Assembly: GCA_903889905.1 (NCBI GenBank)
Contig: CAISZI010000010.1
Span: forward strand, 1,464 to 65,463
Source of the DNA: Candidatus Wirthbacteria bacterium
GTDB lineage: Bacteria; Patescibacteriota; CG2-30-54-11
DNA length: 64,000 nucleotides
Direction: 5' to 3'
Both the position numbers and the translations under genes were made by a program. The notes beneath the pieces are model-generated. The model worked only from the letters and a program-made list of their open reading frames with translations, was not told where the DNA came from and searched no databases. Positions 12,664 to 61,014 of this stretch are shown here, piece by piece (position 1 is the first letter of the stretch; each line of letters opens with the position of its first letter).

Positions 12664-12673
12664 GGGGCGTTCT

Positions 12674-16746: not shown

Positions 16747-16774
16747 GGGAGTATCCAATTATAGGGAGAGTCTT

Positions 16775-17785: not shown

Positions 17786-17791
17786 TAAGAC

Positions 17792-27498: not shown

Positions 27499-27641
27499 AA
27501 AAAAGCGGCCGGTTTAAGAAAAAACTGTGTAAGATTAGCCAAGATAGGGTACCAAAGGGCTGTTGATTTGGCAACTTGGGGGGCAGTTTTTGGCAATAGG
27601 GGAAAGGTGTCGTTTTTCGTTGAAAGAGGAGAGAGTAAAGC

Positions 27642-28445: not shown

Positions 28446-28520
28446 CTGGTGCTAAAGAATTATACTGTTCAGACTGTAGCGCGATTTGGGCGTTCGGGGA
28501 AGGGGGAGATAGGCGTTTTG

Positions 28521-32507: not shown

Positions 32508-32602
32508 ATTGCAGTTTAATAAAATGAATGGGTTTAATTATAGCACAACAAAAAAGATCTCTGGCAGGCAGAGAGCTGGGTGGAGCGATTAGCTAAGCAA
32601 GA

Positions 32603-33646: not shown

Positions 33647-33678
33647 ACACGGTTAAGTTAATAAAACAACAGAGTGTT

Positions 33679-34809: not shown

Positions 34810-34845
34810 AAGAAAATTTCAATTTTGATAATGAAGTCAGTCTAA

Positions 34846-35772: not shown

Positions 35773-35812
35773 GGCAAGGCTTTAGTAAATAGTTTTTGGG
35801 TAAGCTTGGAAG

Positions 35813-36817
35813 CTATTCAAATTCATGCGATTTCGGATGATAGGCAGTACAGAATTGACTGGCTTGGTCTGCGTCCAGGGAGAGCAGGAGTGTGATTTTA
35901 CCAAGGCAAGCAGTTGTCCAGTCGTTGTTATGATAAACAGCAGGATGGGTGTCATGGACAAACTGGATAAAATCCTGCATGGCGGGAGCAGGTTCCTGTT
36001 GCTTGATGTCTTGTATCATTTGCGACAATTGGGTTGTTTCCAGAGAAGCGTGCGCATAGGTATTTGCCATTCCCGACAAGGATAAAACAATGTCTGCGCG
36101 CGAACGCAGAGAGGCTTGCGCATAATTCTTGACGAGTTTTTTGGCGACCGGCAATCCTAATTTTGACAGGTAATCACGGTCCAGAGTAACATCGGGATTT
36201 TTGCTGCGGGCGACCATGTCGATCTGACTCTGAGCAGAAAACAGGTTGAGCGTCGGCAGGGTTATTGCCAAAACAGCAATGGCGATAAAGACAATAGTAG
36301 AGGCAAGTTGAACCCGGACCAAGTGTCGACGAAGCGAAGCATCGTTTCGGTTTGTTTTCCAATATTGTAAAAGGAAAAAGATTTCAATCAGCGCAATGAA
36401 AAAAACCAGTACGCACAAAATAAGCGCGACAAGGCGGTTGGAGGTAAAAGCGTACTCCCCCACGCGCATTATCACCAGATAAAACCCTGTCAGGCAAAAC
36501 AAAAGGCTGCCCACCATTTGACCAAACAGAGTGGCAATGGTTAGTGCTTTGACCTTTGGCTGCTGAATGTTCGAAAGCAGGCTCATTTCGAACGCAACAA
36601 GGAATTGCAGGATCAGGCAGGACAACAGATATAAAGCAGCAGTGTTGTTGATTTCGAGTTGGAGCAGGTAGCGAAAAGGAAGTAACAGCAACATACAAAG
36701 CCCCAGTAGCGCTGAGCAAAGCGTGCAATAAAACCAAGCAGGCCATCCTGGTTTTGACTCATCTGTCAGGGTTGCCGGTGGCGCTTTGACAACAGGCTCA
36801 GGCATAACGTTGACCAT
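35813..36817 (-). CDS. Polytopic membrane protein, unknown function
   Basis: Multiple hydrophobic helices; upstream of and co-directional with mvk. Confidence 0.45.
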   Translation of the reverse strand: MVNVMPEPVVKAPPATLTDESKPGWPAWFYCTLCSALLGLCMLLLLPFRYLLQLEINNTAALYLLSCLILQFLVAFEMSLLSNIQQPKVKALTIATLFGQMVGSLLFCLTGFYLVIMRVGEYAFTSNRLVALILCVLVFFIALIEIFFLLQYWKTNRNDASLRRHLVRVQLASTIVFIAIAVLAITLPTLNLFSAQSQIDMVARSKNPDVTLDRDYLSKLGLPVAKKLVKNYAQASLRSRADIVLSLSGMANTYAHASLETTQLSQMIQDIKQQEPAPAMQDFIQFVHDTHPAVYHNNDWTTACLGKITLLLSLDADQASQFCTAYHPKSHEFE

Positions 36818-46400: not shown

Positions 46401-46453
46401 CGATATCTGCCAGTATCCTTTTAACGTTATCTATTTATCAATAGTGAGTGATT

Positions 46454-46807
46454 ATGGCAGTTGCAATTCGCCTCGCCCGGCGCGGAAAAAGGACACAACC
46501 GCATTATAACATCATCGTGCAGGACAAAGAAAAGTCCCCCAAAGGTGGTTATATCGAAAAACTGGGATATTTTGAACCCTATACCAATCCTTCGACGCTT
46601 GTCCTGGATGGCGCCAAAACGCAGGAATGGATCAAGAACGGCGCACAGCCTAGCGAACGGGTTGCCAAATTGATCGTGCTTGCCGGTGGCAAAAAAATCG
46701 AACCCAAAGTCCGCAAAGCCAAGAAAAACTTTGGCGGCAAGTTCGTCAAAGCTGCTCCTGTTGAAGCTCCCAAAGCCGAAGTCAAAGCCGAAGCACCCAA
46801 GAGCTAA
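46454..46807 (+). CDS. rpsP: 30S ribosomal protein S16 with Lys/Ala-rich C-terminal extension
   Basis: MAVAIRLARRGKRTQPHYNIIV... The ORF-track start at 46448 is a GTG 2 codons upstream. C-terminal tail KVRKAKKNFGGKFVKAAPVEAPKAEVKAEAPKS. Confidence 0.85.
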   Translation: MAVAIRLARRGKRTQPHYNIIVQDKEKSPKGGYIEKLGYFEPYTNPSTLVLDGAKTQEWIKNGAQPSERVAKLIVLAGGKKIEPKVRKAKKNFGGKFVKAAPVEAPKAEVKAEAPKS

Positions 46808-46836
46808 GCCTAATCCCCGCTAATCGTGAGGAACGC

Positions 46837-47097
46837 ATGGAAAAAGCGATAGCTCTGCTGCAATATTTGGTGCAAGCCCTCGTCGATCATCCTGAAGTGG
46901 TGAGCGTGACTTCGGGTGTGCAGGAAAATGGCCTGGTGCTCAAAGTAACCGTTGACCCCCGGGATGCCGGCATGGTGATTGGCAAAAAAGGCTACGTCAT
47001 CCGTGCCATCCGTCAGCTGGTCAATGTCATCGGCAGCCGTGAACGAGAACGCGTCATGGTGGATATTATCCCGATCGAAGCAGCTCAGACCGCCTGA
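46837..47097 (+). CDS. KH-domain RNA-binding protein (YlqC/UPF0109 family)
   Basis: GMVIGKKGYVIRAIRQLV (GxxG KH motif). Conserved rpsP-ylqC-trmD neighbourhood. Confidence 0.75.
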   Translation: MEKAIALLQYLVQALVDHPEVVSVTSGVQENGLVLKVTVDPRDAGMVIGKKGYVIRAIRQLVNVIGSRERERVMVDIIPIEAAQTA

Positions 47098-47104
47098 TTT
47101 TTTC

Positions 47105-47140
47105 AAATCCCCGCAAGGGGATTTTTCATATCCTGTTTTT
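47105..47140 (+). terminator. Hairpin AAATCCCCGCAAGGGGATTT followed by T-rich tract between the KH gene and trmD (terminator/attenuator-like)
   Basis: 8-bp stem, 4-nt loop, then TTTCATATCCTGTTTTTT. Confidence 0.4.
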
Positions 47141-47158
47141 TACGCGGTCGTTGCAGTT

Positions 47159-47869
47159 ATGCAAATTGAAATTGTTACGCTTTTTCCCAAGATGTTTGAC
47201 GGCATTCTGGCCGAAAGCATGGTTAAACGTGGGGTAGAAGCTGGGGTGATTGGTGTCGGTTTTGTTGATCTGCGGCAGTTTGGGTCGGGCAAACACCAGG
47301 TCGTTGATGATCGTCCGTATGGCGGCGGCCCGGGCATGCTGCTCAAAGCCAAGCCACTGGTGGAAGCGATCGAAGCCGCGCAGGATAAATTATTGCTTAA
47401 AACCGGACTTGCGCTGCAGCAACAGGAAATTATCTACCTGTGTCCGCAGGGGCGACCTTATGTCCAGAGGGATGCCAAAGAGTTGTCCCAGAGCAAAGGC
47501 TTTGTCCTGGTTTGCGGGCACTATGAAGGGATTGACGAACGGGTCAGGGAACTCAAGATCACGCGGGAGATTTCCATGGGGGACTTTGTCCTTTCCGGCG
47601 GGGAGATCGCAGCGATGGCCGTCGTCGATAGCGTGGCGCGCCTGATTCCCGGGGTGCTGGGTGACCTGGAATCCACCCGCGAAGAAACTTTTGAAGACAA
47701 TCTGCTGGAATATCCGCAATACACTAGACCGCTGGAATACCGTGGGCTCAAAGTGCCAGACGTGTTGCTCTCTGGCCATCACGGGCAGGTCGAGGCATGG
47801 CGTACACAAGCGCGGTACGAGCGGACGGAGCAACGACGACCGGATCTGCTCCAAAAACGCCCCCAATAA
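47159..47869 (+). CDS. trmD: tRNA (guanine37-N1)-methyltransferase TrmD
   Basis: MQIEIVTLFPKMFDG..., DDRPYGGGPGM, VCGHYEGIDERV; SPOUT trefoil-knot family motifs. Confidence 0.85.
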   Translation: MQIEIVTLFPKMFDGILAESMVKRGVEAGVIGVGFVDLRQFGSGKHQVVDDRPYGGGPGMLLKAKPLVEAIEAAQDKLLLKTGLALQQQEIIYLCPQGRPYVQRDAKELSQSKGFVLVCGHYEGIDERVRELKITREISMGDFVLSGGEIAAMAVVDSVARLIPGVLGDLESTREETFEDNLLEYPQYTRPLEYRGLKVPDVLLSGHHGQVEAWRTQARYERTEQRRPDLLQKRPQ

Positions 47870-47947
47870 ACCGTCCCGCACAAACGACAATCCTTGGGAT
47901 TGCTGGATGATATCTGCTATAATTGATGCCAGCAGGCGCGTACTTAA

Positions 47948-49942
47948 TTGTGGCGACTAAAGGCAGTCATGCTTAGACAAAACAAAGATCAACATCCCGG
48001 GCAAATTATTCTCCTCTTGTTGCTGATTGTGGCACTGGGGTTGGTAATTGCTTTGTCGCTGATCCAAATCAGCTTGACGCAACAACAAACTGTGCGTTAT
48101 GACGACTTTGGTGTGCGTGCCTATTATGCGGCTGAAGCCGGCATTGAGGACGTCGTGCCCAAACTCAAGGACGCCGCCGATCTCAATGGCCAGGCCCTGG
48201 ACAATTTTCTCGCCAGTACCACCAATGGCATCTCCATCGCCACGGCGCAGCCGATTGATAGCAATATCAGCGGGGCGCCAACCTTTGTGCGCACCGTGAA
48301 GCGCAGCGATCCGGCGCTGGTGGTGACGCGTACCCTGGCCAACAATGCCGTCACGCAGATGGATTTGTCGGATGGCAACGGACTGGCGCTGGAAGACAAA
48401 AAACTACAGGTCGGCTGGCAGGATACCACTTGCAATCCCACCTCGGGTGGCTGTGACTGTGGTGCCGGCCAGTGTACGGCGCTGGTTGAGGTGACCGTAC
48501 TTTCCCAGCTGGCCAATACGACCAATCTGGTTGTCAATCCCAGCTTTGAAGCGCCCACCACGGGTGCCGCCGAAACAGCAGGTACCGCCACTGGCTGGAG
48601 CGTGATTGATGCCAGTTTGTCGGGTTCGCCCATTGCTTATATCGAGCACGAAACAACGCAAAATCTTACCCGTTACGGCACCGGTTCAGGGGCCACCTAT
48701 GCGGGACAGTCCCAAAAAATTACTTTGCTCAGTTACCCGGGCGTCGGTCAACCAGCCTGCAGCTGGGTCAAAAGTGATGGGACAGCGGTGCCGTCAGCCA
48801 ACCAGAGCAGTAGTCTCGTGGCGTACTACGGAACAGCGCCGGCTGCTGGCGTCTGCAACAGTACCGTACTGGGTTATGGCAAAAGTGCATTCGCTTGTTC
48901 CACTGCCGGCAGCGGCAGTTGTTACGATGTCGAAAACAGTTTTAGTAAAATACCTGTCGCGTCTCAGAACCAGACTCCCGGTAGTGCCGGGTCTTGCCTC
49001 AGCATGACGCCAGTGGCGGCGACACTTTTCAGTACAGCAACACCACTAGCCTGGAAATGCAATGCGCAACTCGGCAGCACCACCTCTCGGGTGGGCATCA
49101 GCCGGGCGGGAAACCTGATCAGTTTGGGTACTTTACCCGCGGCAGCCAATACGACCTTTACTCTGTCTGCCTATGTGCAGGTGCAGTCGCTCAACGCCGG
49201 ACAGGTACAGCTCGCGGTGGACGCTTATGATGCCGGCAATGTCTTAATTGCGAGTAGTCACCAGACGGTGGAAAGTTCCCATTTTGCCAGCAATGCCACC
49301 AGTGGCAGTAACTGGGAACGGATCTACCTGACCTTTCACTACAATGTGGCCATGACCAAAATCAACCCTTATATTTTTATGACACCTGGAGCAACCGGGA
49401 CTTTTTATGTAGATGGCGTGCAACTGGAGCAAGGCGTGACCGCGACCGAATATTGTGACAGCTCCCAGACATACAGCTCGGGCGGGATAACCTATGGCCA
49501 GTGCTATGCGAATGGGGACGGGACCAGTTACCGCAGCAACGTTTATTACATGGACAAATATTTTTATAATCCGCGGCCGGCGCTTTCGATCAATGCGACA
49601 CCATCGTCCTACAATGCGATCGATTACAACACGACGACCAAAACGATTGCCGAATTTATTCCCATTGTGCATGCCTCCAGCAACCGGCTGGTACGTATCC
49701 AGACCTACATGGGGACGGTTAGCCTGACCGTGTCAGCCATTGATCCCGCTAATGCCAATGCCTCCTACAATCTGCCAGGGCAGGATATTCAGATTATTTC
49801 CACAGGCAGTTATCAGGATACGAAGCAGACAGTTTCGCTGACACGCGGGCTACCGACATTACTTCCCCAATTTCAATTTGTTCTAAACAATCACGGCTGC
49901 GCCGAGGGCGGCGGATGCGTGGCCAAGGATTTGATTAAATAA
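47948..49942 (+). CDS. Large secreted protein with PilX-like N-terminal domain (type IV pilus-associated minor-pilin-like), Cys-rich
   Basis: N-terminus GQIILLLLLIVALGLVIALSLIQISLTQQQTVRYDDFGVRAYYAAEAGIE matches the PilX N-terminal domain pattern (hydrophobic helix ... QA..AAEAG.E). Confidence 0.4.
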   Translation: MWRLKAVMLRQNKDQHPGQIILLLLLIVALGLVIALSLIQISLTQQQTVRYDDFGVRAYYAAEAGIEDVVPKLKDAADLNGQALDNFLASTTNGISIATAQPIDSNISGAPTFVRTVKRSDPALVVTRTLANNAVTQMDLSDGNGLALEDKKLQVGWQDTTCNPTSGGCDCGAGQCTALVEVTVLSQLANTTNLVVNPSFEAPTTGAAETAGTATGWSVIDASLSGSPIAYIEHETTQNLTRYGTGSGATYAGQSQKITLLSYPGVGQPACSWVKSDGTAVPSANQSSSLVAYYGTAPAAGVCNSTVLGYGKSAFACSTAGSGSCYDVENSFSKIPVASQNQTPGSAGSCLSMTPVAATLFSTATPLAWKCNAQLGSTTSRVGISRAGNLISLGTLPAAANTTFTLSAYVQVQSLNAGQVQLAVDAYDAGNVLIASSHQTVESSHFASNATSGSNWERIYLTFHYNVAMTKINPYIFMTPGATGTFYVDGVQLEQGVTATEYCDSSQTYSSGGITYGQCYANGDGTSYRSNVYYMDKYFYNPRPALSINATPSSYNAIDYNTTTKTIAEFIPIVHASSNRLVRIQTYMGTVSLTVSAIDPANANASYNLPGQDIQIISTGSYQDTKQTVSLTRGLPTLLPQFQFVLNNHGCAEGGGCVAKDLIK

Positions 49943-49966
49943 AATTTCTTGTTAAAGGGTTACGCC

Positions 49967-52900
49967 ATGAGAAACATCTCTGCTTTTAGCCTAAAAAAAA
50001 TCTTCGTCCCTGTCGTGTTGCTCGCCGGCGTGCTGGCAGCAAGCGGATGGTTCGTCGCCAGCCAGGCCAGCGCGGCCACGAGCTTGACTGGACGCACCAT
50101 CAATTATCAGGGCCGGCTAAGGGACAAAAGCACGGGAGAATTGCTGACTGGGTCGAAGTGGATGTATTTTGAAATCAAAAATGTCGCAACGGGTACGGTT
50201 ACCGATCGTGATCCCAGTCCTTCTGGAGCGAAAGCGATCACGCTCGCCAATGGGGTTTTTGCCGAGCAGATTCCGATCAATATTACCGATCCGACCAATA
50301 CCGCGACAGACACTTACTTTGGGTTGGATACGGGTTCTACCTGGACGATTACGGTGTATGTCTGTACGGATGCAACGGCTGCCAGTTGCGATGCTTTTCC
50401 GCCACAGTCAGTGAGTGGAACGGCGTATGCACTCAATTCCGACATGCTCGATGGTCATCACTGGAGTGATGTTGTGGCGGCGTCGGGAAGTTATATCATG
50501 AACCAGACTGTCATCCAGACAGGAGCTAATTTTTATGTGGGTAATTCCGGCCGTATCGGCACGACGTTGACCGTAGATCAGAGTGCCAGTATCGGGACCA
50601 ATTTGACCGTCACCGGGAGTGTCGGGATTGGGACGGGTAGTCCTGCCGCTAAGTTGCAGATCACTGGTGGTAACGCCATCATCGAAAACACCAATGGGAC
50701 CAACAATCTGTTGACCCTCAGGAATATGGCCAATGCGGACCAGCTGCTGGCCGTGGGGATGAGTGGGGTGGGTGGCAGCATTCAAGGGCAATACGGGTTG
50801 GATTTGAGAAGTATTGCCAATAACGCGGGCTATTTTGTTGCACTGGGCACGGCCAATACGGAACGTATGCGCATTGATAATAGTGGCAATATTGGCATGG
50901 GAATGACAAGTCCGGGAACCAGGCTGGATGTCAAAGGGGGTGCGATTAGAGTCAACCAGCAAGCTGCCAACAGTGTCCGCGGTTCAGGTTTGGATGTCGG
51001 TTGGACAGGGACGGGTAATGCGGACATTTATTTTGGCGACTACACCAATGGTTGGGCTTTGGGGGAAAACGTGGATGCTTCCATGCGTATTTCTAAGACA
51101 TCCGGAACGATCCTTACCGACCTGGTGACGATTCAGAATGGCGGCAATGTCGGCATCGGGATCACGAATCCTGGCGCCAAACTGGATGTGAATGGGTCTT
51201 TGTATGTCGAAGGTCCCAATTCAACCATTGATTTCCGTTCTGGCGGCAATGCTCTGACCACGATCCGCGAAGCCAATGGCCTGACCCTTAATGGCAACAC
51301 CACACACCCGGTGCAAATTCCCAATGCCGGACTGATGGTGGGATATACTTTGGGGTCAACGTTTAACAGTGGCAACCTGGCGGTGCTCAACTGGGTTGGG
51401 ATTGGGACCACGGCACCGCGCACACAGCTGCATGTCGATACCACACCTTTTGCCAACACGACAGCGTCGGCGCAGTTTACGACGGGAGGTACGAGCGATG
51501 CCGCAACCGATGGTTTGTTGATCGGTTACGACGATAGTATCCCGGGTGCCAAAATCATGAACCAGGAAGCGGCGAACCTGGTGCTTGGGACAAACAATAC
51601 GGAACGGATGCGCATTAACACTGCTGGTAATGTTGGGATTGGGACAACCAGTCCCAAAAGCACATTGGATGTCAACGGATCGCTGGCTGTTGGTACTTAT
51701 GCTGGGACATCGGCTGCACCCACCAATGGGTTGATCGTTTCGGGTAATGTCGGTATCGGCACGACTAATCCGCTGGGTAAATTCCAGGCGATTTTGCCGG
51801 CGTGGACGAGCTGGGACACCGATGCCCAGCAGGCCATTTTTGGGTCCGGGACTTCGGGTTATGGCGTCCGGATTGGATACAATGACGCCAATAACCTGGG
51901 AGTTATCAATGTCCTCAAGCCGGGGGTAGCGTGGGGGAATCTGAGTCTGCAGGCGGGTTTTGGCAATGTCGGTATCGGGACAACGAGTCCAACCCAGAAA
52001 CTGGAAGTGAACGGCACAACCAAAACGACGACTTTGCAAATCGCCAGCCTCACGGTGCCTTGCAGCAATGGGCTGATCACCACGGATACCAATGGTACGG
52101 TGGCCTGCAGCGCCACGAGTTACGTCAAAGGTTCCGGTACCCAAAACTACGTGCCCAAATTCAACACACCAGCGGGAGATACCATTGGCAACTCGCTGAT
52201 TTTTGACAATGGCACGAATGTCGGGATCGGGACCACTGCGCCGGGTCAGAAGTTGGACGTGATCGGGAAGATCAGAGCACTCAATGCTTCAGGGTCAGGA
52301 GTGAAACTTGTTCCTGATGGTGCAGCGGGCAATAATTATAGTTCTGCCGGCATTTATACCGTTGATTTTGCCAATGCCGCCACTTATGGACTCCTCAATC
52401 CGGGGCCCGAAGCCAACATGATGTTCCGTACTGATAACTGGAATTCCACTTTTGTCTTTGGTAATACAAAGTCACCAGGTACGACGTCGGATTTTCAAGA
52501 AAAAATGCGGTTGGATGTGAATGGCAACCTTGGCCTTGGGACCACGAATCCGCAGTCGTCACTTCACGTCTATGCGGCCAACCCTAGCGGCAACAGCCGG
52601 ATCATGGAAACACTGGAAAGTGGGGATTCGGGGGGCAGTGCGCTTATCGGACTCACGCTCAAAACAGCAACCGCGAATTCCTCTGGTGGGATCAATGTCT
52701 ACGATGCGGGCTATACTGCGACCGTCGGTTTTGCCGGCACGACAGCGCTTTACTCCAACGACACGGGCGGGGTGATGTTGGCTGCCGCCAATGCAGCAGG
52801 GGATATCTCCTTCCTGACCGGCGGACTCACGGTGCCTGCCAATCAGCGCATGGTGATCAATCCGACGGGCAAAGTCGGGATCGGTATCACCAATCCGACG

Positions 52901-55444
52901 AATGCCTATACTTTGACCGTCCAGAATGGGACCTATTTTACAGGATACACTGCTGGCATTAACCAGCTAAATTATGTTTCACCCTGGGTAACTTTTGCCG
53001 GGAATACAGCCACAACGCTGGATGGTCTATTCCATCCTCCGGGTTTGACGACCGATGGTGCCGGGAATATGAAGTCGGTCAATAATTATGGGCTCAGCAT
53101 TGGTTGGAACGCTGGTTCGGGCAGTGGCACGAGCAATATCGTTTTTTCCAATACCGAGTCTCAACCTGCCTGTGATGGCTCAAGAACGCCACCTGTTTGT
53201 TACTACCCCAGTATCACGACTCCTCCACCCAATGGTACTTATCCGTTCACTTATACCGACCCCACAGGTGATTCATTAAATAACCCCGCCGATGTCTATC
53301 CTTACCGTTATCGCTACAACCCGGTCAATTCTGACAGCTGGTATTATACCGGGCAGGATGCTGTTACTGGTAAACCATCCGTTAGTTTTCCCGCAACAGT
53401 AGGATTCTCTGGCTGGACCAAGGGACTGGATATCGCCTCCTATGATGGCAGCCCGCTCAGTACCAGTCAGAGCAATAATGGTTATCATTCCCGTATGTAT
53501 TTTGATGCCTATCGTCCCTATATCGGGTTGAATATGGGCTCTGGACCGAGCTTGTGGACTATGCCTAATGCCAACCTTGATATTCGCGGGACGTCGCTGC
53601 GGTTTGGCCTGAATGGTGATCCCTTCATGAATATCCCCACGAAGGCAACCGACGCTTCCGATACCCTGGGATTGATTGCCGTGGCGAATACGATTAATAA
53701 TACCGATTATCGTTACTATGTTGAAGACGACGCCACGGATTCGATTTCGTTCTGGGGCAATAGTTGCGGCGGTGGGGCTTGCTTTGATTTGAGTAAATCA
53801 TCGAATATCATGACGATTATGGGCGGAGGCAACGTGGGGATTGGGACGACCGATCCGTGGGCTAAACTGGAAACCACCGTATCGGGAATCTGGTCAAATG
53901 CTGAATGGGCGAAAAATGGCTTGCAAACATCAACTGGTCACACCAACAGTGATTATTCCCTGTATATGGGTGCAGATGCCACCAATCATCTTTCCTATAT
54001 CCAATCAGTTAACGCGCTTGTTGGCATGGCAAATTTGGTGTTGAATGCTAGAGGTGGGAACGTGGGGATTGGGACGACGAATCCGCAAGCGAATTTGCAT
54101 GTTTTTAACACCACAACCTCTTCACCTCGCAATCTCGTCTTGGAACAAAATAATGCCGGCGCGGACGCGGTGCAAATTGTGACGCAAAAAAGTCATGGCA
54201 CAGGGACAACCCTGGCAGCGGTGCAGGCCAACGACAAATTGGTTAATGTGGCATTTCAGGGGTATGACGGAACGGGCTATCATTCGGGTGCCAATATCAT
54301 TGCCTATGCCGAAACGGCTTTTGCGGCCAATTCTTGGAACAGTAATTTGACATTCAGCACCACCAGTGCAGCCAGCTCCATTGAAAGAATGAGAATTACT
54401 TCAGTGGGCAATGTCGGCATTGGGACGACCAATCCGTTAGTGCCTTTGGACGTCAACGGAGTCATCCGCCAAAAAGGCTGCGTCAACTCCGACTGTTATG
54501 CTGATGGCAATGGGCAGTTTACCAATTTTTCGGATGAGAGATTAAAAGACATTCATGGCATGTACCAGGGCGGATTGAGTGAACTTACGCAAATCAATCC
54601 AATTATCTTTAACCTCAAGGGCGAAGGGTACACCCACGTCGGGTTTTCCGCACAGAATGTTCAAAAGGTACTTCCCGAAGCAACTCCGCTTCAAGCTGAT
54701 GGATATCTTGGATTAGATAGCAGGGCTGTTCTGGCGCTGACGGTGAATTCTGTCAAAGAACTGCAAGCCGAAATCTCGACTTTGCAAACAAAAGGAACGA
54801 CCATCAATATTGGCGATTACCAGCTGCTCGGAAATGTCAATAATAATTATGAGACCGTCAATACCCAGGGCAAAGTCATCACCAATGTCGACGTCTTCTC
54901 CAAAGCCATGGTTGCCGACCTGCAGGCCGGAACGATCACGGCTAAGTCCATCCAGACCGACAATCTCACTATTGGCAACAAGTCGCTTAAGGATTACATC
55001 ACCACTATTGTTGATCAGGAAATTGCTACCAAACTGGCGGGTTCAAGTGGTAATGGTGCAACGCAGCAAATCACCACCACCGGCAGTTTTGCGCCTGGTG
55101 ACGTGGTGGCCATTGATGCCGCCAATCCCGGCCAATTGCGTCTGAGTCAAACCGCCTATGAGTCTGCGGTGGCGGGCGTTGTGGCTGACCATGCGGCCGG
55201 AGCCAGTCAGGTACAGATCGATAAGGCAACCGTGGTACTGGCGGGGCGGACGCTGGTCAAGGTGACGACAGAAAACGGCCCGATTCATGCGGGAGATCTG
55301 CTGGTAACTGCCAGCAAACCCGGTTATGCCATGAAGGGTGACAAGATGAAAATTATCTTGAATCCCGGCGTTGTCCTCGGTAAAGCCATGGCTAATCTGG
55401 CTAGTGGCGAGGGCAGTCTGTTGGTGCTGGTCAATTTACAATAA
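49967..55444 (+). CDS. Giant secreted tail-fibre-like protein (~1825 aa) with many NVGIGTT(N/S)P..KL(D/E)V repeats, an internal Peptidase_S74 intramolecular-chaperone domain, and a C-terminal domain shared with the downstream paralogue
   Basis: Signal peptide MRNISAFSLKKIFVPVVLLAGVLAASGWFVASQASA (ATG 49967 with AAGGG RBS). S74 domain motifs SDERLKDIHGM, LSELTQINPIIFNLK, VGFSAQNVQKVLPEA, LGLDSRAVLALTVNSVKELQAEISTLQ at ~54.5-54.8 kb. Confidence 0.65.
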   Translation: MRNISAFSLKKIFVPVVLLAGVLAASGWFVASQASAATSLTGRTINYQGRLRDKSTGELLTGSKWMYFEIKNVATGTVTDRDPSPSGAKAITLANGVFAEQIPINITDPTNTATDTYFGLDTGSTWTITVYVCTDATAASCDAFPPQSVSGTAYALNSDMLDGHHWSDVVAASGSYIMNQTVIQTGANFYVGNSGRIGTTLTVDQSASIGTNLTVTGSVGIGTGSPAAKLQITGGNAIIENTNGTNNLLTLRNMANADQLLAVGMSGVGGSIQGQYGLDLRSIANNAGYFVALGTANTERMRIDNSGNIGMGMTSPGTRLDVKGGAIRVNQQAANSVRGSGLDVGWTGTGNADIYFGDYTNGWALGENVDASMRISKTSGTILTDLVTIQNGGNVGIGITNPGAKLDVNGSLYVEGPNSTIDFRSGGNALTTIREANGLTLNGNTTHPVQIPNAGLMVGYTLGSTFNSGNLAVLNWVGIGTTAPRTQLHVDTTPFANTTASAQFTTGGTSDAATDGLLIGYDDSIPGAKIMNQEAANLVLGTNNTERMRINTAGNVGIGTTSPKSTLDVNGSLAVGTYAGTSAAPTNGLIVSGNVGIGTTNPLGKFQAILPAWTSWDTDAQQAIFGSGTSGYGVRIGYNDANNLGVINVLKPGVAWGNLSLQAGFGNVGIGTTSPTQKLEVNGTTKTTTLQIASLTVPCSNGLITTDTNGTVACSATSYVKGSGTQNYVPKFNTPAGDTIGNSLIFDNGTNVGIGTTAPGQKLDVIGKIRALNASGSGVKLVPDGAAGNNYSSAGIYTVDFANAATYGLLNPGPEANMMFRTDNWNSTFVFGNTKSPGTTSDFQEKMRLDVNGNLGLGTTNPQSSLHVYAANPSGNSRIMETLESGDSGGSALIGLTLKTATANSSGGINVYDAGYTATVGFAGTTALYSNDTGGVMLAAANAAGDISFLTGGLTVPANQRMVINPTGKVGIGITNPTNAYTLTVQNGTYFTGYTAGINQLNYVSPWVTFAGNTATTLDGLFHPPGLTTDGAGNMKSVNNYGLSIGWNAGSGSGTSNIVFSNTESQPACDGSRTPPVCYYPSITTPPPNGTYPFTYTDPTGDSLNNPADVYPYRYRYNPVNSDSWYYTGQDAVTGKPSVSFPATVGFSGWTKGLDIASYDGSPLSTSQSNNGYHSRMYFDAYRPYIGLNMGSGPSLWTMPNANLDIRGTSLRFGLNGDPFMNIPTKATDASDTLGLIAVANTINNTDYRYYVEDDATDSISFWGNSCGGGACFDLSKSSNIMTIMGGGNVGIGTTDPWAKLETTVSGIWSNAEWAKNGLQTSTGHTNSDYSLYMGADATNHLSYIQSVNALVGMANLVLNARGGNVGIGTTNPQANLHVFNTTTSSPRNLVLEQNNAGADAVQIVTQKSHGTGTTLAAVQANDKLVNVAFQGYDGTGYHSGANIIAYAETAFAANSWNSNLTFSTTSAASSIERMRITSVGNVGIGTTNPLVPLDVNGVIRQKGCVNSDCYADGNGQFTNFSDERLKDIHGMYQGGLSELTQINPIIFNLKGEGYTHVGFSAQNVQKVLPEATPLQADGYLGLDSRAVLALTVNSVKELQAEISTLQTKGTTINIGDYQLLGNVNNNYETVNTQGKVITNVDVFSKAMVADLQAGTITAKSIQTDNLTIGNKSLKDYITTIVDQEIATKLAGSSGNGATQQITTTGSFAPGDVVAIDAANPGQLRLSQTAYESAVAGVVADHAAGASQVQIDKATVVLAGRTLVKVTTENGPIHAGDLLVTASKPGYAMKGDKMKIILNPGVVLGKAMANLASGEGSLLVLVNLQ

Positions 55445-55459
55445 AGTCAGGCGATATTC

Positions 55460-57406
55460 ATGAAGCTTTCCCTTCGGTTTAAAACAGTCCAACCCATTGG
55501 GACCATCAGCCTGCTTTTGTTGCTGGTGATTGGAGTGTTGACTCTGGCAGCGTTGCAAGCCAGTGCGGCAGCTCCCGTGGGCAACCAGCGTCTGATCAAT
55601 TATCAGGGTCGGCTGCGAGATAAAGCAACCGGGGAGCTTGTCAGTGGCTCCAGGTTTATGATCTTTTCCGTCTACAAAAATGGATCCGGGACCGCCATCG
55701 AAAAATATCCTGCCATTGGTGCCATCGCCGTTACGGTCAACAACGGCGTGTTTGGCGTGGCCATTCCGATCAGTAATTTGAACGAGCCAGCAAGTGTAAT
55801 ATCGGATACCAATTTTGACTGGTCAGCGACCTGGGGTATCGGGGTGGCGGTCTGCACCACGGTAGCGGCTACGTCGTGTGATACGTTTCCAACGCAATCG
55901 TTGGCGTCGGTGCCAACGTCACTGAATGCCGACATGCTGGATGGGCACCACTGGAGTGAAGTGGCGGCGCTCGCGGGCGGGAATTTTATCCAAAATCAAA
56001 ATGCAGCAGAGCAGACCGCGAATTTCTGGATCAGCGGGGATGGCCATGCCGGCAGTTTGACCGTAGATGGGACCGGCGCTAACTGGATTTTGAGCAATAC
56101 GGCCTGGGGAGGGAGTGGTCCGGGGTTGGTGTTTGGCGGCGGTGATGGCACTTTTGGCATCGGGGCCGCTACCGGACGCATGAATCTGCTGATTGATGGT
56201 GCTTTTAGGCAGAATGAGGTGGCGAGCACACCCAACTGGTTTTATGACAGCGTTGGTGTTGGGACGACCAATCCTCTGGCCAAGCTCGATGTGGTGGGGA
56301 CGCTGGCGCTTGGGACCGGGGCGACGGTTGCCCCCACCATGGGGACTAACGCCATCACCATTCGTGGCAGTACCAGCAATTACAATTTGAATGTGCAAGA
56401 CGGCGCGGGGCGGGTCAATTATCTCTGGAATGCCTCGGCTGGCAATGGCACCTACCTGGTTGCCAATGAACCGGCGACGCGTTTTGTCGAAGGGGTGAAC
56501 GCGGTCGGGGCAACGTTTGATTTTTATGGCGCGGCAGCGGGAACGGCGGGAGCTGCAATTGCCTGGACACAGATGGGACATATCAGCAGCAACGATCAGA
56601 TTTGGTTCAGCCCGCGTGGTACCAGTTCGGATTTGTTTGTTGCCAATACCGGCAATGTCGGCATCGGAACGACGGCACCGACAACCAAACTTGAAGTGCA
56701 TGCGGTTAACACACAGGCGATCAGTATCCTCAGTGACGGCGCCACTAACTGGGCCAGTCTGGCCCTGGGGCGGACTGGAGTGGAAGCCGAAATGGGCGTT
56801 GCCGGGGGTGCGGGTTATTTTAGTAATGGGGCGGTGGCCACGGATCTGGTGATCCGAAACAATACGACCACGGGCCGGATTATTTTTACGACCAATGCGG
56901 GAGCTGTGACGCCGCGTGCCCGGATCGAAACCAATGGCGATTTTCATATTGCCGGTACGTATTTCTGCAATGGCGCCGACCTGGCCGAAGGCACACCCGC
57001 CGTGGAAAAACTGCTGGCCGGCGACGTGGTTTCACTGGATGAGGTGCAGGAAGGCAAATTGCGTCGCAGCCAAAGTGCTTATGAAACCAATGTGGCTGGC
57101 GTTGTTTCCACGGACCCGGGGATGAAGCTGGGCGAAAATGCTGTGCAAGGGAATGTTGATTCCACCAGTCAAATTCAAATCGACGGCGTTTACCTGGCTT
57201 TGGCTGGACGTGTGCCAGTCAAGGCCACCACCGCAAACGGGCCGATCAAAGTTGGGGATTTGCTGGTGACCTCGGGCAAAGCGGGTTATGCCATGCGTGG
57301 CGATCGGCTCAAAATTGCGCTGACCCCTGGCGTGGTGCTGGGCAAGGCCATGCAGAGCTTGAAGTCTGGTGAGGGCACAGTATTAATGCTGGTGAATTTA
57401 CGTTAA
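55460..57406 (+). CDS. Secreted fibre-like protein (648 aa), modular paralogue of the giant protein (shared N-terminal ~200 aa and C-terminal ~130 aa, different middle)
   Basis: NYQGRLRDKATGEL..., DMLDGHHWSEV..., NVGIGTTAP, C-terminal LRRSQSAYETNVAGVV...GDLLVTSGKAGYAMRGDRLKIALTPGVVLGKAM...GEGTVLMLVNL aligned to the giant's C-terminus. Confidence 0.6.
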   Translation: MKLSLRFKTVQPIGTISLLLLLVIGVLTLAALQASAAAPVGNQRLINYQGRLRDKATGELVSGSRFMIFSVYKNGSGTAIEKYPAIGAIAVTVNNGVFGVAIPISNLNEPASVISDTNFDWSATWGIGVAVCTTVAATSCDTFPTQSLASVPTSLNADMLDGHHWSEVAALAGGNFIQNQNAAEQTANFWISGDGHAGSLTVDGTGANWILSNTAWGGSGPGLVFGGGDGTFGIGAATGRMNLLIDGAFRQNEVASTPNWFYDSVGVGTTNPLAKLDVVGTLALGTGATVAPTMGTNAITIRGSTSNYNLNVQDGAGRVNYLWNASAGNGTYLVANEPATRFVEGVNAVGATFDFYGAAAGTAGAAIAWTQMGHISSNDQIWFSPRGTSSDLFVANTGNVGIGTTAPTTKLEVHAVNTQAISILSDGATNWASLALGRTGVEAEMGVAGGAGYFSNGAVATDLVIRNNTTTGRIIFTTNAGAVTPRARIETNGDFHIAGTYFCNGADLAEGTPAVEKLLAGDVVSLDEVQEGKLRRSQSAYETNVAGVVSTDPGMKLGENAVQGNVDSTSQIQIDGVYLALAGRVPVKATTANGPIKVGDLLVTSGKAGYAMRGDRLKIALTPGVVLGKAMQSLKSGEGTVLMLVNLR

Positions 57407-59214
57407 TGGTCAAATCTATGCTTAACAAAAAAATTGGTCAAATGGGTGGCGTGTTGATGGTGGCGATGTTGATCGCGGCACCCGTGCTGGCAGCCACTTC
57501 AACCCCTGGCAATAAATATGTGCTGGACGACTCCAGCACCAGCGTCGATGGCGGGGGCAGTCAGATCCTGGCGCCAGATCCGTTCACCGGTCTGCAACAA
57601 GGTGGTTACGGACAGGCAGCATTGGGGCAGACCCGCTCGGATGCAGCAACCAGCGCCGCTAACAAATACGAACTTGATAGCGGTTATCTGTATTTTGATG
57701 ATCAGGCGCCGATTTTTCCAACCGCCATCACCTCCACCCCGACCTTCATGTATTGGGTGCAGAATGCCAGTTCCACGGCGGGTGTGTTTTATATGAACGT
57801 CAAAGAAGATGTTTTGCCACTTGCCGCGACGGAAACCGCTTATCAGCTTCGTTCCGGGCTGGATTTGACCAAAATTTATTACCGTATTTCTCCTGGACTT
57901 TCGGGCCTGTCTGGTGCAGAAGGTTGTACGGGTGATGGTCGCGACAATACCTGGGGTTATTCGACGGGGACAGCGTGGAACAGTCTTCCCAGCAGCTGTC
58001 AAACCAATCCATTGGCCTGGCAACCGGTTGCACCTGGGCCTACACCCAACAATTACACCAGAGGGTCTTTGGCTTTATGTAATGCGTCGGGTCTAAACAG
58101 TTGTATCACCGAGACGGATAGTACCAAAGGCGATCTCATCAGCTATGCCGGGGATGCCAATGCACCATCGAACAGCCCCAATGCCGAAACGATTCGAATC
58201 AATGCCGACTTTAGTCGTTTTTCCCGTTTGGGCGCGGTGCCGGCCGGGACCATCGATGCCACGCTGAACAAAATGACCGGCAATTCCGTGGTGCAGTTCA
58301 AAGCCGTGGACAAAGCTGGCAATGTGACTTTCAGTACGGTGGTCAAAACCACGCCCTGGCTCAAAACCGAACAAGGGGATGTCAATTCTGACAATGGCGT
58401 GATTATGTTTGGTGCCACCAATGGCAACCACAATGTGGCTTACGTGCTTGCTGCCGGCGGCCCGATTTCCAACTTTGACAGCAACAGCAACTGGGTGCTG
58501 CAAAACATGAGCAGCGACCTCAGTTACCCCAATCCCAGTTCGCTCGTACCCAATCCAGCGTTTATCGCGGCCGTGCCGTGGCGGGATGTGGATTATGCAA
58601 CACTGATAGCCAAAGCGCAGACGACCAACCTGGGTGGTTTTTTAAACAACTTTGAAACGTCGGCCGGTTCGCCCCAGACTTTTGTCGCCGACGGGGTTTA
58701 TTACGCGCCGACAGGGTTGACCATCAATGCCTCACCGTCGGGTTACTACACCGGGGTGCAAAATCAGCAAAGCGCGACGATTGTAGTGGATGGGGATCTC
58801 AACGTACTGGGTAACTTTGTGTTGCAAAACGGCGGCTATCTTGCCTTTCTGGTGCGCGGCAACATTACCATCGCCGGTACGGTGAACAAGATGAACGGCA
58901 CCTACCTTGCGGATTACAAAAGCGGGTATTTTGGTACCAGTGACCAGATCCAAAAAAATGCTGCCATGGCCAATACCGGCGTCATCAATACCGGGGATGA
59001 TTCTGGCAGCCCGACGCAACTGGTTGTGTTGGGTCAGTTGATTGCCCGCGCCGGATTTGTCTTTAATCGTGTCTTTATTTATGATCCTGTTTCTGGCACC
59101 AATGGGCCGGCCGAACGGATTGTGTTTGATCCGCAGATTGTGCTGAATACGCCGCCAGGGCTCAAGGATGTGCCAGGGCTGGGTGCCTGGACCGAAGTCC
59201 GTCCCGGCCAATAA
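57406..59214 (+). CDS. Secreted protein (602 aa), unknown function, translationally coupled (TAATG) to the preceding gene
   Basis: Signal peptide MVKSMLNKKIGQMGGVLMVAMLIAAPVLAAT; no recognised domain. Confidence 0.5.
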   Translation: MVKSMLNKKIGQMGGVLMVAMLIAAPVLAATSTPGNKYVLDDSSTSVDGGGSQILAPDPFTGLQQGGYGQAALGQTRSDAATSAANKYELDSGYLYFDDQAPIFPTAITSTPTFMYWVQNASSTAGVFYMNVKEDVLPLAATETAYQLRSGLDLTKIYYRISPGLSGLSGAEGCTGDGRDNTWGYSTGTAWNSLPSSCQTNPLAWQPVAPGPTPNNYTRGSLALCNASGLNSCITETDSTKGDLISYAGDANAPSNSPNAETIRINADFSRFSRLGAVPAGTIDATLNKMTGNSVVQFKAVDKAGNVTFSTVVKTTPWLKTEQGDVNSDNGVIMFGATNGNHNVAYVLAAGGPISNFDSNSNWVLQNMSSDLSYPNPSSLVPNPAFIAAVPWRDVDYATLIAKAQTTNLGGFLNNFETSAGSPQTFVADGVYYAPTGLTINASPSGYYTGVQNQQSATIVVDGDLNVLGNFVLQNGGYLAFLVRGNITIAGTVNKMNGTYLADYKSGYFGTSDQIQKNAAMANTGVINTGDDSGSPTQLVVLGQLIARAGFVFNRVFIYDPVSGTNGPAERIVFDPQIVLNTPPGLKDVPGLGAWTEVRPGQ

Positions 59215-59238
59215 TTATTTTGATCTTGAGGAGAACGC

Positions 59239-59916
59239 ATGGCTGTACCCAAATCCGTTGAGAGGAGTCCTGTGCCAAAACCAAAGTTTCACCACCGCGT
59301 CAGATACTGTGTCGTGGCGATGTTATTCCCCTGTCTTGTTTTTGTCTGTGGTTTTTTGGCCGGACATTTTTCGACTTCGACCGTGAAGGGATCGCCACTT
59401 GGGCTGATCGACTCTGCGGTTTACTCCTCGGCCAACGCCGTGCTGCAGGGAAGCGTCAAGTCGATTGCGGGAAACACATTGGTGCTGACACGTGCCAATC
59501 AGGAATTGCAGTTAACTTTGTCGGCTGAAGAAACCAAAAAGATTGTCTTAAATGCCCGCGTTATGGCCAGCGCCACGGATCAGAAAACCTGGACCGATTA
59601 TCAGCAGGCTGTGACCGACTACAACCTGGCCATGAACACATACCTGGCCCAACAGAAACCAACTGACGCCTTTGCCAAAACGGTTGGCGTTGCCCCAACA
59701 CCGCCGGTTGTGCCTGCCTTTACGATCGAGACGATCAGCGACGCCAGCCAGAATGCCATCAGTCCCAAGATCAAAGTAATCAAGGCCAGCACGCGCGTGG
59801 TGGGCCTGAGTGAGGTGAGAGCTGGGGACAGCTTACAAATTTCCCTGTCCAAAAGTGCGACCGGAACGGGACTGGGTATCGACCAGATGATCGTGACCAG
59901 GGATACGACGGAATAG
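59239..59916 (+). CDS. Membrane-anchored protein (225 aa), unknown function
   Basis: One N-terminal TM helix (YCVVAMLFPCLVFVCGFLAGHF); follows the secreted-protein genes. Confidence 0.45.
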   Translation: MAVPKSVERSPVPKPKFHHRVRYCVVAMLFPCLVFVCGFLAGHFSTSTVKGSPLGLIDSAVYSSANAVLQGSVKSIAGNTLVLTRANQELQLTLSAEETKKIVLNARVMASATDQKTWTDYQQAVTDYNLAMNTYLAQQKPTDAFAKTVGVAPTPPVVPAFTIETISDASQNAISPKIKVIKASTRVVGLSEVRAGDSLQISLSKSATGTGLGIDQMIVTRDTTE

Positions 59917-59979: not shown

Positions 59980-61014
59980 ATGGACGTGATTGCATTGGAA
60001 GCGTGGTTCAAAAGTCACAAGCTTCCTCCGTTTCGACTCAAACAGGTTAATGACTGGGTGTACAGGGCTGGCGTGACGGATTTTGCGCTGATGAGTAATT
60101 TGCCGCAGGAACACCGTGACCAGCTTGCCAAAGAATTTTCAATTCTCAGTTTTGTGCCAGGCAAAAACCAGGACAGCAAAGACAACCAGACGACCAAAAT
60201 TGCCCTCAAGCTCCGCGATGGTGCGCTGATTGAAATGGTGCTGATGCGTCATCTCACGGGCCGCAAGTCCGTTTGCATCTCATCACAGACGGGCTGTTCG
60301 ATCGGTTGTGCGTTTTGCGCCACTGGTCAGAAGATCGGTAATGGCCGCAATCTCACAGCCGAAGAAATGGTGGATCAGGTGGTGTGGGCGAGACACCTAT
60401 TGATGCTGGAAAATCCCGGGAGTATCGAACCTTACCCCAACAATGTGGTGATGATGGGCATGGGCGAGCCGTTTGTCAATTACGACAACGTCATGCAGGC
60501 GATCAAGACGATTCAGGATCGCATGCAAATCGGCGGGCGGCGACTGACGGTTTCGACGTCTGGCGTGGCGCCGCGGATTGTGGATTTCGCCAAAGCTGAC
60601 ATGCAGGTCAACCTGGCCGTTTCTTTGCACGCAGCCACTGACAAAATGCGCGACCTGCTGGTGCCGCTCAATCAGCACTATCCGCTCGCAGCCCTCAAAC
60701 TGGCGGTGCTGGAGTATATGCGACTCGTGAAACGTAAAGTTTTCTTCGAATATGTCATGCTGGATGGCATCAACGATACCGAGGAAGCTCTGGCTGATTT
60801 GATCAAATGGTTGCCACATACCCTGTCGCATGTCAATTTGATTCCCTACAACGAAGTCTCGGGTACGCCTTTCCGTCCCTCGCGCGAGGCACAATTGCAG
60901 TATTTTCATGACGCCTTGGAAAAAGCTGGAGTGCCAGTCACTGTTCGCCATACCATGGGCGACGATGTGCAGGCCGCCTGCGGACAGCTTGCGGCGGGTG
61001 CGCGGCGACGCTAA
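59980..61014 (+). CDS. rlmN: 23S rRNA (adenine2503-C2)-methyltransferase RlmN (radical SAM)
   Basis: CISSQTGCSIGCAFCATG (CxxxCxxC radical-SAM cluster), MGMGEP, typical RlmN N- and C-termini. Confidence 0.85.
   Translation: MDVIALEAWFKSHKLPPFRLKQVNDWVYRAGVTDFALMSNLPQEHRDQLAKEFSILSFVPGKNQDSKDNQTTKIALKLRDGALIEMVLMRHLTGRKSVCISSQTGCSIGCAFCATGQKIGNGRNLTAEEMVDQVVWARHLLMLENPGSIEPYPNNVVMMGMGEPFVNYDNVMQAIKTIQDRMQIGGRRLTVSTSGVAPRIVDFAKADMQVNLAVSLHAATDKMRDLLVPLNQHYPLAALKLAVLEYMRLVKRKVFFEYVMLDGINDTEEALADLIKWLPHTLSHVNLIPYNEVSGTPFRPSREAQLQYFHDALEKAGVPVTVRHTMGDDVQAACGQLAAGARRR

What the first reader, a model, noticed from the sequence alone, without database searches (positions are those of the whole stretch)
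47948..59916. 11-kb surface-fibre locus: PilX-like protein, a 1831-aa tail-fibre-like giant, a modular paralogue, and two further secreted/membrane proteins
Five consecutive co-directional genes all encode exported or membrane proteins. The giant and its 648-aa neighbour share an N-terminal ~200-aa module (NYQGRLRDK(S/A)TGEL...DMLDGHHW(S)(D/E)V) and a C-terminal ~130-aa module (LR(L/R)SQ(T/S)AYE...GDLLVT..K.GYAM(K/R)GD..KI.L.PGVVLGKAM..L.SGEG..L.LVNL). Their central regions, built from NVGIGTT.P repeats, are different. A similar repeat type recurs in the 22.6 kb protein. The first gene has a PilX-like N-terminus, which links the locus to type IV pili. This architecture (constant termini, variable repeat-rich middles, tail-fibre chaperone domain) suggests a diversifying family of adhesive fibres or tip adhesins. 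In a CPR-like episymbiont these would be prime candidates for host attachment. The shared C-terminal module could be a novel sorting/anchoring domain.
Basis: partly seen in the sequence, partly recalled or inferred. Interest (0 to 1): 0.7.

Follow-up and report, generated by a model that had tools for sequence, protein, structure and literature searches.

The report
Self-chaperoned phage-like surface fibre genes
Two neighbouring genes encode long, secreted, phage-tail-fibre-like proteins of the kind Bdellovibrio uses to grip prey, and the C-terminal block they share is a disposable self-folding (chaperone) domain of the phage phi29 type, not a new anchoring signal.

The parts
47894..47923 (+). 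promoter-like site (TTGGGA-18-TGnTATAAT) just upstream of gene 1
   Evidence: It matches 10 of 12 consensus positions and has an extended -10. The scan as a whole is not enriched over shuffles, so this is only suggestive.
47948..49942 (+). gene 1: 664-aa membrane-anchored protein. It has a PilX_N-like N-terminus (aa 21-67) and a tail-protein/CBM-like beta domain (aa ~390-511).
   Evidence: Pfam PilX_N E=7e-6 and weak CBM_4_9. NCBIfam GTA_spike_fiber E=2.5e-7, below its cut-off. PHROG 1330 tail protein E=6e-6. One hydrophobic segment at aa 15-46. No relatives found.
49949..55444 (+). gene 2: giant fibre protein (1831 aa from TTG; 1825 aa from the publicly annotated ATG at 49967)
49949..50077 (+). 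giant: signal peptide (…VASQASA|ATS)
   Evidence: Hydrophobic segment at aa 10-40 and an A-x-A site.
50081..50590 (+). giant: shared N-module (aa ~45-214), a beta-sandwich 'base' domain containing INYQGRL…DMLDGHHW
50621..54493 (+). giant: fibre shaft with 13 NVGIGTTxP capping loops. It is interrupted by a repeat-free, aromatic-rich insert at aa ~976-1296 (nt ~52874-53836).
   Evidence: Loop positions. Homology to Bd1334, Bd2439, Bd2133 and Bd3182 crystal structures at E=2e-15 to 4e-4. PHROG tail-fibre families at E=4e-46 and 7e-33.
54530..54790 (+). giant: Peptidase_S74 intramolecular chaperone/protease. The catalytic motif is S1528-D-E-R-L-K1533, and the predicted cut releases the last 304 aa.
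   Evidence: Pfam PF13884, 38.6 bits against a cut-off of 22. Motif and position. Local S74 profile hit.
55025..55441 (+). giant: shared C-module (aa ~1693-1831), G2-type auto-chaperone fold WITHOUT the D-x-A-E site
55460..57406 (+). gene 3: 648-aa fibre paralogue (identical to public protein P0001)
55565..56092 (+). p648: shared N-module (aa ~36-211), following the signal peptide (…LQASA|AAP)
56093..56977 (+). p648: short fibre shaft with two VGxGTTxP loops. The block at aa ~260-450 is shared at up to 50% identity with unrelated-context proteins (P0005, P0009).
56978..56989 (+). p648: D507-L-A-E510, the predicted G2 autocleavage site (cut A506|D507)
   Evidence: It aligns with phi29 gp12 S691|D692-F-A-E695. 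The motif is conserved in 84-91 of 100 modules.
56978..57403 (+). p648: shared C-module (aa 507-648), phi29-gp12-type auto-chaperone
57406..59214 (+). gene 4: 602-aa secreted protein of unknown family. Its start codon overlaps the stop codon of gene 3.
   Evidence: Signal peptide …APVLA|ATS. No hit in Pfam, NCBIfam, PHROGs, PADLOC or PDB.
59239..59916 (+). gene 5: 225-aa protein with one N-terminal transmembrane anchor, unknown family

Best explanation
Genes 2 and 3 encode Sec-exported, homotrimeric, phage-tail-fibre-like surface fibres of the kind described as MAT (mosaic adhesive trimer) fibres in Bdellovibrio. Each protein is built from five kinds of part. (i) A signal peptide. (ii) A conserved beta-sandwich N-module that probably fixes the fibre base to the cell envelope. 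(iii) A beta-helical shaft of ~80-120-aa units closed by NVGIGTTxP capping loops. The shaft is 1300 aa in the giant and 290 aa in p648, which by scaling from Bd3182 gives roughly 100 nm and 30 nm. (iv) A distal tip that would carry binding specificity. (v) A C-terminal intramolecular chaperone that nucleates and registers the trimer and is then removed by autoproteolysis. In p648 the chaperone is a phi29-gp12 (peptidase G2) type domain, cut at A506|D507 (D-L-A-E). In the giant the cut is made by an S74 Ser-Lys protease at S1528, and a G2-type module that has lost its own cleavage site rides behind it and leaves with it. The 'constant C-terminus' is therefore folding scaffolding that is absent from the mature fibre. 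Shown: the module homologies, the folds, the motifs and the gene arrangement. Inferred: trimerisation, cleavage, surface location and adhesion. Genes 1, 4 and 5 are co-transcribed envelope proteins whose role (base attachment, assembly or unrelated) is unknown.
Against: Neither window protein itself reaches any Pfam Peptidase_G2 score. The profile-to-gp12 sequence match is weak (7 bits in a one-sequence search), so the G2 assignment rests mainly on fold and motif. Only monomer models could be made, so trimerisation was not tested. phi29 gp12 D4 is reported to have an ATP-binding pocket (PMC13317679). A Sec-exported protein would fold where ATP is absent, so either ATP is dispensable here or processing differs. 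Homology of the N-module to the Bdellovibrio MAT N-domain could not be tested. The cell-envelope type of the organism is unknown. No experimental data exist.
Confidence: 0.72

Rival explanations
1. The shared C-terminal module is a sorting, anchoring or secretion signal. It would stay on the mature protein and tether it to the envelope or target it to a dedicated exporter.
For: The module is at the extreme C-terminus and ends in a strongly conserved, partly hydrophobic tail (…GKAM..L..G.G..LVLVNLQ) in over 100 proteins. That superficially resembles C-terminal sorting tags. The giant's copy has no cleavage motif of its own.
Against: The module is a ~140-aa globular beta domain with the gp12 auto-chaperone / capsid-cement fold. 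It gives no significant hit to a sorting-domain family in Pfam or NCBIfam. It is preceded by the G2 cleavage motif in ~90% of cases. In the giant it lies downstream of an intact S74 self-cleavage site. Some proteins carry two copies, some of them internal.
Confidence: 0.05
2. The locus is a type IV pilus accessory module. The PilX-like protein is a tip minor pilin, and the fibres and other proteins are pilus-associated adhesins.
For: PilX_N hit above the Pfam threshold (26.4 against 25.5 bits). The N-terminus (…HPG|QIILLLLLIVALGLV…) resembles the leader and hydrophobic stem of PilX/GspK-type minor pilins, which also lack Glu5 (my own knowledge). The gene is first in the operon. The MAT paper notes a possible interplay between fibres and type IV pili.
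Against: No pilin, prepilin peptidase, PilB/C/T or PilM-Q family appears among the larger window ORFs that were scanned. No PilX_N or pilus family is listed for the genes around five related fibre loci. The fibres have Sec signal peptides and not prepilin leaders. No relatives of the PilX-like protein were found with which to test co-occurrence.
Confidence: 0.1
3. The genes are remnants of a prophage, tailocin or contractile injection system: tail fibres that are not cell-surface structures of the bacterium itself.
For: Strong matches to phage tail-fibre PHROGs, and both chaperone types are classically phage domains. Weak tblastn hits of the C-module to jumbo-phage virion proteins.
Against: The proteins carry Sec signal peptides, which virion proteins assembled in the cytoplasm would not be expected to have. 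No other phage-type family (capsid, portal, terminase, sheath, baseplate, integrase) appeared among the window ORFs scanned with Pfam. The locus lies between trmD and rlmN. GC content equals that of the flanks. The N-module has no significant match in viral structure predictions. Related genes form tandem arrays in cellular contexts.
Confidence: 0.08

Closest known systems
Bdellovibrio bacteriovorus MAT (mosaic adhesive trimer) fibres, e.g. Bd3182, Bd2133, Bd1334, Bd2439 (Caulton et al. 2024, PMC10769870)
   Same: Signal peptide, then a conserved beta-rich N-terminal domain. Long shaft of beta-helical units with V-G-x-G-x-x-P-x-x-x-L capping loops, with direct sequence homology at E=2e-15. An S74 chaperone-protease with SDxxxK at the end of some members and other ends in the rest. 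Several paralogues per genome with swapped parts.
   Different: Homology of the N-domain to the Bdellovibrio one was not tested. The non-S74 member here ends in a cleavable G2-type chaperone and not in a permanent tip domain. The giant couples S74 to a second chaperone-type module. The organism shows no sign of being a Bdellovibrio-like predator. No localisation or function data exist.
Bacillus phage phi29 gp12 pre-neck appendage, C-terminal auto-chaperone D4 (peptidase family G2, Pfam PF11962; PDB 3gqh/3suc)
   Different: Here the protein has a signal peptide and a cellular context. Sequence similarity is too low for Pfam to call it in the window proteins. The giant's copy lacks the cleavage motif. 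The ATP-binding pocket reported for gp12 was not examined here.
S74 intramolecular chaperones of phage K1F endosialidase, T5 pb1 and GA-1 gp12 (Pfam PF13884)
   Same: The giant has the domain above threshold with the Ser-Lys motif directly after the last shaft unit, as in S74-type MAT fibres and phage fibres.
   Different: The S74 domain is not terminal. About 220 further residues follow, including the G2-type module. This arrangement was seen in 9 of the 149 top representatives.
Trimeric phage capsid cement/decoration proteins (HFTV1 gp, Sf11 gp40, XM1 gp53, Pam3 gp6, lambda gpD; Pfam PF23982, PF09956, PF22758)
   Different: They are free-standing capsid proteins with no link to fibres and no cleavage motif.
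PilX/GspK-type minor pilins
   Same: Gene 1 has the PilX_N N-terminal helix (marginal hit) and a large C-terminal part.
   Different: No partner minor pilins or pilus machinery nearby. The rest of the protein resembles carbohydrate-binding or phage spike beta domains.

Membership tests
MAT fibre family (Caulton et al. 2024) | N-terminal signal peptide | tested here: met
   Hydrophobic segment plus an A-x-A site in the giant and in p648. Judged by inspection only, without a dedicated predictor.
MAT fibre family (Caulton et al. 2024) | Conserved beta-rich N-terminal domain of ~130 aa directly after the signal peptide, homologous to that of the Bdellovibrio proteins | not testable with these tools
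   A conserved beta-sandwich domain is present in that position. Like the MAT N-domain, it has no PDB homologue. No Bdellovibrio N-domain sequence was available, and the AFDB library was offline.
MAT fibre family (Caulton et al. 2024) | Shaft of beta-helical units with V-G-G/N-pi-x-x-P-x-x-x-L capping loops, homologous to solved MAT segments | tested here: met
   13 loops in the giant. phmmer E=2e-15 (8oml), 3e-11 (8ol4), 5.5e-7 (8on4) and 1.3e-6 (8ond) over ~100-130 aa. p648 reaches the PDB entries only indirectly, through the giant.
MAT fibre family (Caulton et al. 2024) | Homotrimeric fibre on the cell surface with an adhesive tip | not testable with these tools
   Only monomer predictions were possible, and there are no experimental data.
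Peptidase_G2 / phi29 gp12 intramolecular chaperone (PF11962) | Fold of the gp12 C-terminal auto-chaperone | tested here: met
Peptidase_G2 / phi29 gp12 intramolecular chaperone (PF11962) | Asp…Glu (D-x-A-E) cleavage motif at the start of the domain | tested here: met
   p648 D507-L-A-E510 aligns with gp12 D692-F-A-E695. NOT met in the giant, which has 'SGNGATQQIT' at that place.
Peptidase_G2 / phi29 gp12 intramolecular chaperone (PF11962) | Score above the Pfam gathering threshold | tested here: not met
   No PF11962 hit for either window protein at E<=0.1. Among homologues, hits are of 24-32 bits around the 25-bit cut-off, and 5 of 29 module segments hit. The window proteins are therefore best called distant relatives recognised by fold.
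Peptidase_G2 / phi29 gp12 intramolecular chaperone (PF11962) | Autoproteolytic release after trimer folding | not testable with these tools
   Needs expression of wild type and D507A/E510A mutants.
Peptidase_S74 chaperone of endosialidase (PF13884) | Domain score above threshold and the Ser…Lys (SDxxxK) catalytic motif | tested here: met
   38.6 bits against a cut-off of 22. S1528-DERL-K1533.
Type IV pilus minor pilin PilX | PilX_N domain | tested here: met
   26.4 bits against a cut-off of 25.5, E=7e-6. This is marginal.
Type IV pilus minor pilin PilX | Genomic association with other minor pilins or pilus assembly genes | tested here: not met
   No such family among the window ORFs scanned. 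The rest of the genome was not available.
Known C-terminal sorting signals (LPXTG, T9SS CTD, PEP-CTERM and the like) | Match of the C-terminal module to a sorting-domain model | tested here: not met
   No significant hit to such a family in Pfam or NCBIfam for the proteins or for 29 module segments. There is no LPXTG-type motif, and the module is a 140-aa globular domain.

The most novel reading that the evidence does not exclude
The N-module marks a very widespread, so far undescribed class of cellular 'base-anchored' fibres. It is found in CPR/Patescibacteria, Acidobacteriota, Omnitrophota and this lineage. These fibres would be exported by Sec, would fold outside the cytoplasm with phage-derived disposable chaperones (S74, G2, or both in tandem), and would serve cell-cell attachment such as episymbiont-host or predator-prey contact. 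Two things would be new. G2-type autoprocessing would work without ATP in the extracytoplasmic space. The cleavage-dead G2 module behind S74 would have a second role, for example as a trimer clamp during export or as a handle for the co-transcribed proteins of genes 1, 4 and 5.
Probability: 0.2. Interest if true: 0.6.

Novelty: new variant of a known kind. Interest (0 to 1): 0.4.

Why it matters
This corrects a tempting mis-annotation. A strongly conserved C-terminal block on secreted giant proteins turns out to be a throw-away folding device and not an anchor. The module is missed by Pfam in the window proteins, and only about a tenth of the listed relatives carry PF11962. The exhaustive search, run with a query that also contained the S74 domain, returned about 20,000 representative clusters. 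Among its top 149 hits, 95 carried the module. This suggests thousands of environmental proteins are affected. The result also extends the Bdellovibrio MAT fibre concept (constant base, swappable shaft and tip, self-cleaving chaperone) to unrelated and uncultivated lineages, including CPR genomes. There such fibres are plausible host-attachment candidates. It gives precise, cheap experiments: two point mutants per protein. It is not a new kind of system.

Tried and rejected
(1) Genome-wide scan with the 29-sequence C-module alignment.

(2) TrmD scan of reference genomes, meant to name the organism and test synteny. The best hits were only ~50% identical and spread over many phyla, with no syntenic relative.

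(3) Exact look-ups of P0001 and of housekeeping proteins.

(4) Single-sequence N-module search. It returned nothing, not even the parent protein, so I treat it as a tool artefact. The profile search then gave 309 hits.

(6) Profile searches of the PDB with the C- and N-modules. No significant sequence hit, so only fold comparison found gp12.

(7) PilX-like protein, p602 and p225. There were no significant matches in the PDB (p225 was not searched there), PADLOC or the fetched loci. The PilX-like protein had none in JGI metagenomes. p602 and p225 had none in Pfam, NCBIfam or PHROGs either.

(8) Active diversification. DNA repeats are only 60-80% identical copies of the loop-coding motif, and there is no significant tandem array. 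No reverse-transcriptase family appeared among the ORFs scanned. The idea of an active diversifying mechanism is therefore rejected. The mosaicism is evolutionary.

(9) The primary phi29 gp12 paper (PMC2692858). It is not held. Its ATP-site and cleavage details were taken from citing papers.
Full report
OBSERVATION. The intergenic distances are 6, 15, -1 and 24 nt. The locus lies between rpsP-trmD (46448-47869) and rlmN (59980-61014). Its GC content is the same as that of the flanks. A promoter-like site with an extended -10 lies at 47894-47923, but it is only suggestive. BLASTP of the giant against the 648-aa protein confirms the two shared modules: the N-terminal at 81/164 identities (E=3e-42) and the C-terminal at 70/128 (E=2e-35). 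The middles are only weakly related. Each of the five proteins has a single N-terminal hydrophobic segment. The giant, p648 and p602 have A-x-A signal-peptidase sites, while gene 1 and gene 5 look like signal anchors. Pfam finds PilX_N in gene 1 (26.4 bits, cut-off 25.5) and Peptidase_S74 in the giant (38.6 bits, cut-off 22).

THE SHAFTS. A sequence search of the PDB with the giant hits only the crystallised Bdellovibrio bacteriovorus fibre fragments. With the last shaft units as query, the matches are 8oml (Bd1334) at E=2e-15, 8ol4 (Bd2439) at 3e-11, 8on4 (Bd1334) at 5.5e-7 and 8ond (Bd2133) at 1.3e-6. The alignments run over 100-130 residues, for example ERMRITSVGNVGIGTTNPLVPLDVNG against ERMRITGSGLVGIGTPAPAVPLQVA (PDB-to-protein mapping). 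Caulton et al. (PMC10769870) define these MAT fibres by four features: a signal peptide; a conserved beta-rich N-domain of ~130 aa; a trimeric beta-helix whose units are closed by capping loops of consensus V-G-G/N-pi-x-x-P-x-x-x-L; and either an S74 chaperone-protease (SDxxxK) or another terminal domain. The giant has 13 of them, ~40-120 aa apart, with one 320-aa repeat-free insert. PHROGs independently assigns the giant to two 'tail fiber protein' families (E=4e-46 and 7e-33). p648 matches the same two families weakly.

THE GIANT'S C-TERMINUS. The giant has S1528-D-E-R-L-K1533 directly after its last shaft unit. This is the S74 catalytic motif that was shown to cut Bd3182. Cleavage there would release 304 residues, which comprise the S74 chaperone, a ~80-aa linker and the G2-type module. 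An exhaustive HMMER search of 1.84 billion representatives with these 317 residues found 19,950 proteins at E<=1e-3 and 5,482 at E<=1e-10. Of the top 149 besides the query's own match, 54 carry S74 only, 86 the G2-type module only and 9 both. Of 100 modules, 84 have D-x-[AS]-E and 7 more have GD(L/I)(V/I)E. The exceptions are mostly modules that follow an S74 domain. So 'S74 followed by a cleavage-site-less G2-type module' is a recurrent minority architecture. Why a second chaperone-type domain is kept is not explained. In both paralogues the shared C-terminal block should be absent from the mature fibre.

THE OTHER THREE GENES AND THE PILUS IDEA. Gene 1 combines a marginal PilX_N helix with a beta domain (aa ~390-511). 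That domain resembles phage head-spike or tail and carbohydrate-binding domains. p602 and p225 match nothing in Pfam, NCBIfam, PHROGs or PADLOC, and p602 matches nothing in the PDB. None of the three has a relative in any fetched locus, and the PilX-like protein has none in JGI metagenomes. Pfam scans of some 45 of the larger window ORFs found no pilin or pilus-assembly family. The Pfam families listed for genes around five independent neighbourhoods of related fibres include none either. Those neighbourhoods contain polysaccharide, RHS-toxin or regulatory genes instead. The type IV pilus link is therefore weak.

ORGANISM. No name is on record. Housekeeping proteins are singleton clusters. TrmD is ~50% identical to proteins from Bacillota, Ktedonobacteraceae, Omnitrophota and Armatimonadota, and no Patescibacteria are among the best 80. 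The window holds three GAF histidine kinases, FemAB, a Mur ligase and mevalonate-pathway genes next to an amino-acid-kinase-family gene. The closest relatives of the N-module in JGI metagenomes are only ~31% identical. 'CPR-like episymbiont' is not supported, and the lineage is isolated.

DIVERSIFICATION. DNA repeats within and between the two genes are 60-80% identical copies of the loop-coding motif. There are no long identical tracts and no significant tandem arrays. The mosaicism is evolutionary, and no active mechanism is indicated.

MECHANISM (best explanation, confidence ~0.7). The order of events would be as follows: Sec export; C-terminal chaperone domains trimerise and register the three chains; the beta-helical shaft zips up towards the N-terminus; autoproteolysis at D507 (p648) or S1528 (giant) removes the chaperone and exposes the distal tip; the N-module holds the base at the envelope. 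The homologies, folds, motifs and arrangement are shown. Trimerisation, cleavage, location and adhesion are inferred. The main caveat is that the phi29 domain is reported to have an ATP-binding pocket, whereas these proteins would fold outside the cytoplasm.

VERDICT. This is a real and well-described locus. Its centrepiece is a pair of MAT-like, phage-derived surface fibres with disposable intramolecular chaperones. What remains new is modest: a G2-type chaperone on Sec-exported cellular fibres, which Pfam detects in only a minority of relatives; the S74+G2 tandem; and the wide distribution of the N-terminal base module. I rate this a new variant of a known kind, with interest 0.4.

Noticed in passing
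window 22613-23992 (+): A third fibre-type gene (459 aa). It has a Sec signal peptide and four GNVGIGTxxP loops, and scores E=1.9e-12 to the giant. It has neither shared module. It contains a near-exact internal ~60-aa duplication and ends in a helical LLQKVEELSLYAIDQQNQIDQLKNE tail. An M23-peptidase-like ORF follows at 23989-25401.
   Followed up: partly
window 13978-22386 (+): Three GAF + HisKA + HATPase histidine kinases of 922, 856 and 675 aa, with an unannotated 381-aa ORF between the first two. The first has a 7TM sensor region. They lie in a stretch of lower GC (0.37-0.49, against ~0.52 elsewhere).
   Followed up: no
window 26287-36817 (-): Mevalonate-pathway genes (HMG-CoA reductase, an amino-acid-kinase-family gene, MVD-like, GHMP kinase) are interrupted by a 1328-aa Leu-rich ORF (28521-32507). 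That ORF has no Pfam or NCBIfam match and no signal peptide.
   Followed up: no
window ~52874-53836 (giant aa ~976-1296): A 320-aa repeat-free, aromatic-rich insert in the middle of the shaft (…YPFTYTDPTGDSLNNPADVYPYRYRYNPVNSDSWYY…) with no family match. It could be a lateral binding domain.
   Followed up: no
proteins P0244, P0276, P0325, P0391: Some representatives carry two copies of the G2-type module, some of them internal and far from the C-terminus. The module is therefore not strictly a terminal element.
   Followed up: no
L087 11567-18051; L088 13007-16879: In two unrelated metagenomic contigs the fibre genes lie within 5 kb upstream of RHS/YD-shell (and SpvB/TcdB) toxin genes. This hints at a link between such fibres and contact-dependent antagonism.
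   Followed up: no
L086 (Candidatus Vogelbacteria, GCA_016188295.1) 8001-13903: A CPR genome has a tandem array of an N-module gene (264 aa), a 580-aa gene and a 1172-aa S74-terminated gene. The called genes overlap by ~77 nt, so they may be one mis-split fibre gene. The array lies a few kb from Wzx/Wzy genes. In this window, a Wzx-like flippase and GT4 genes lie 2.5-6 kb upstream of the locus.
   Followed up: partly
window 46979-47869 (+): The longest trmD ORF starts at a TTG 87 codons before the Pfam domain begins. The true start is probably further downstream.
   Followed up: no
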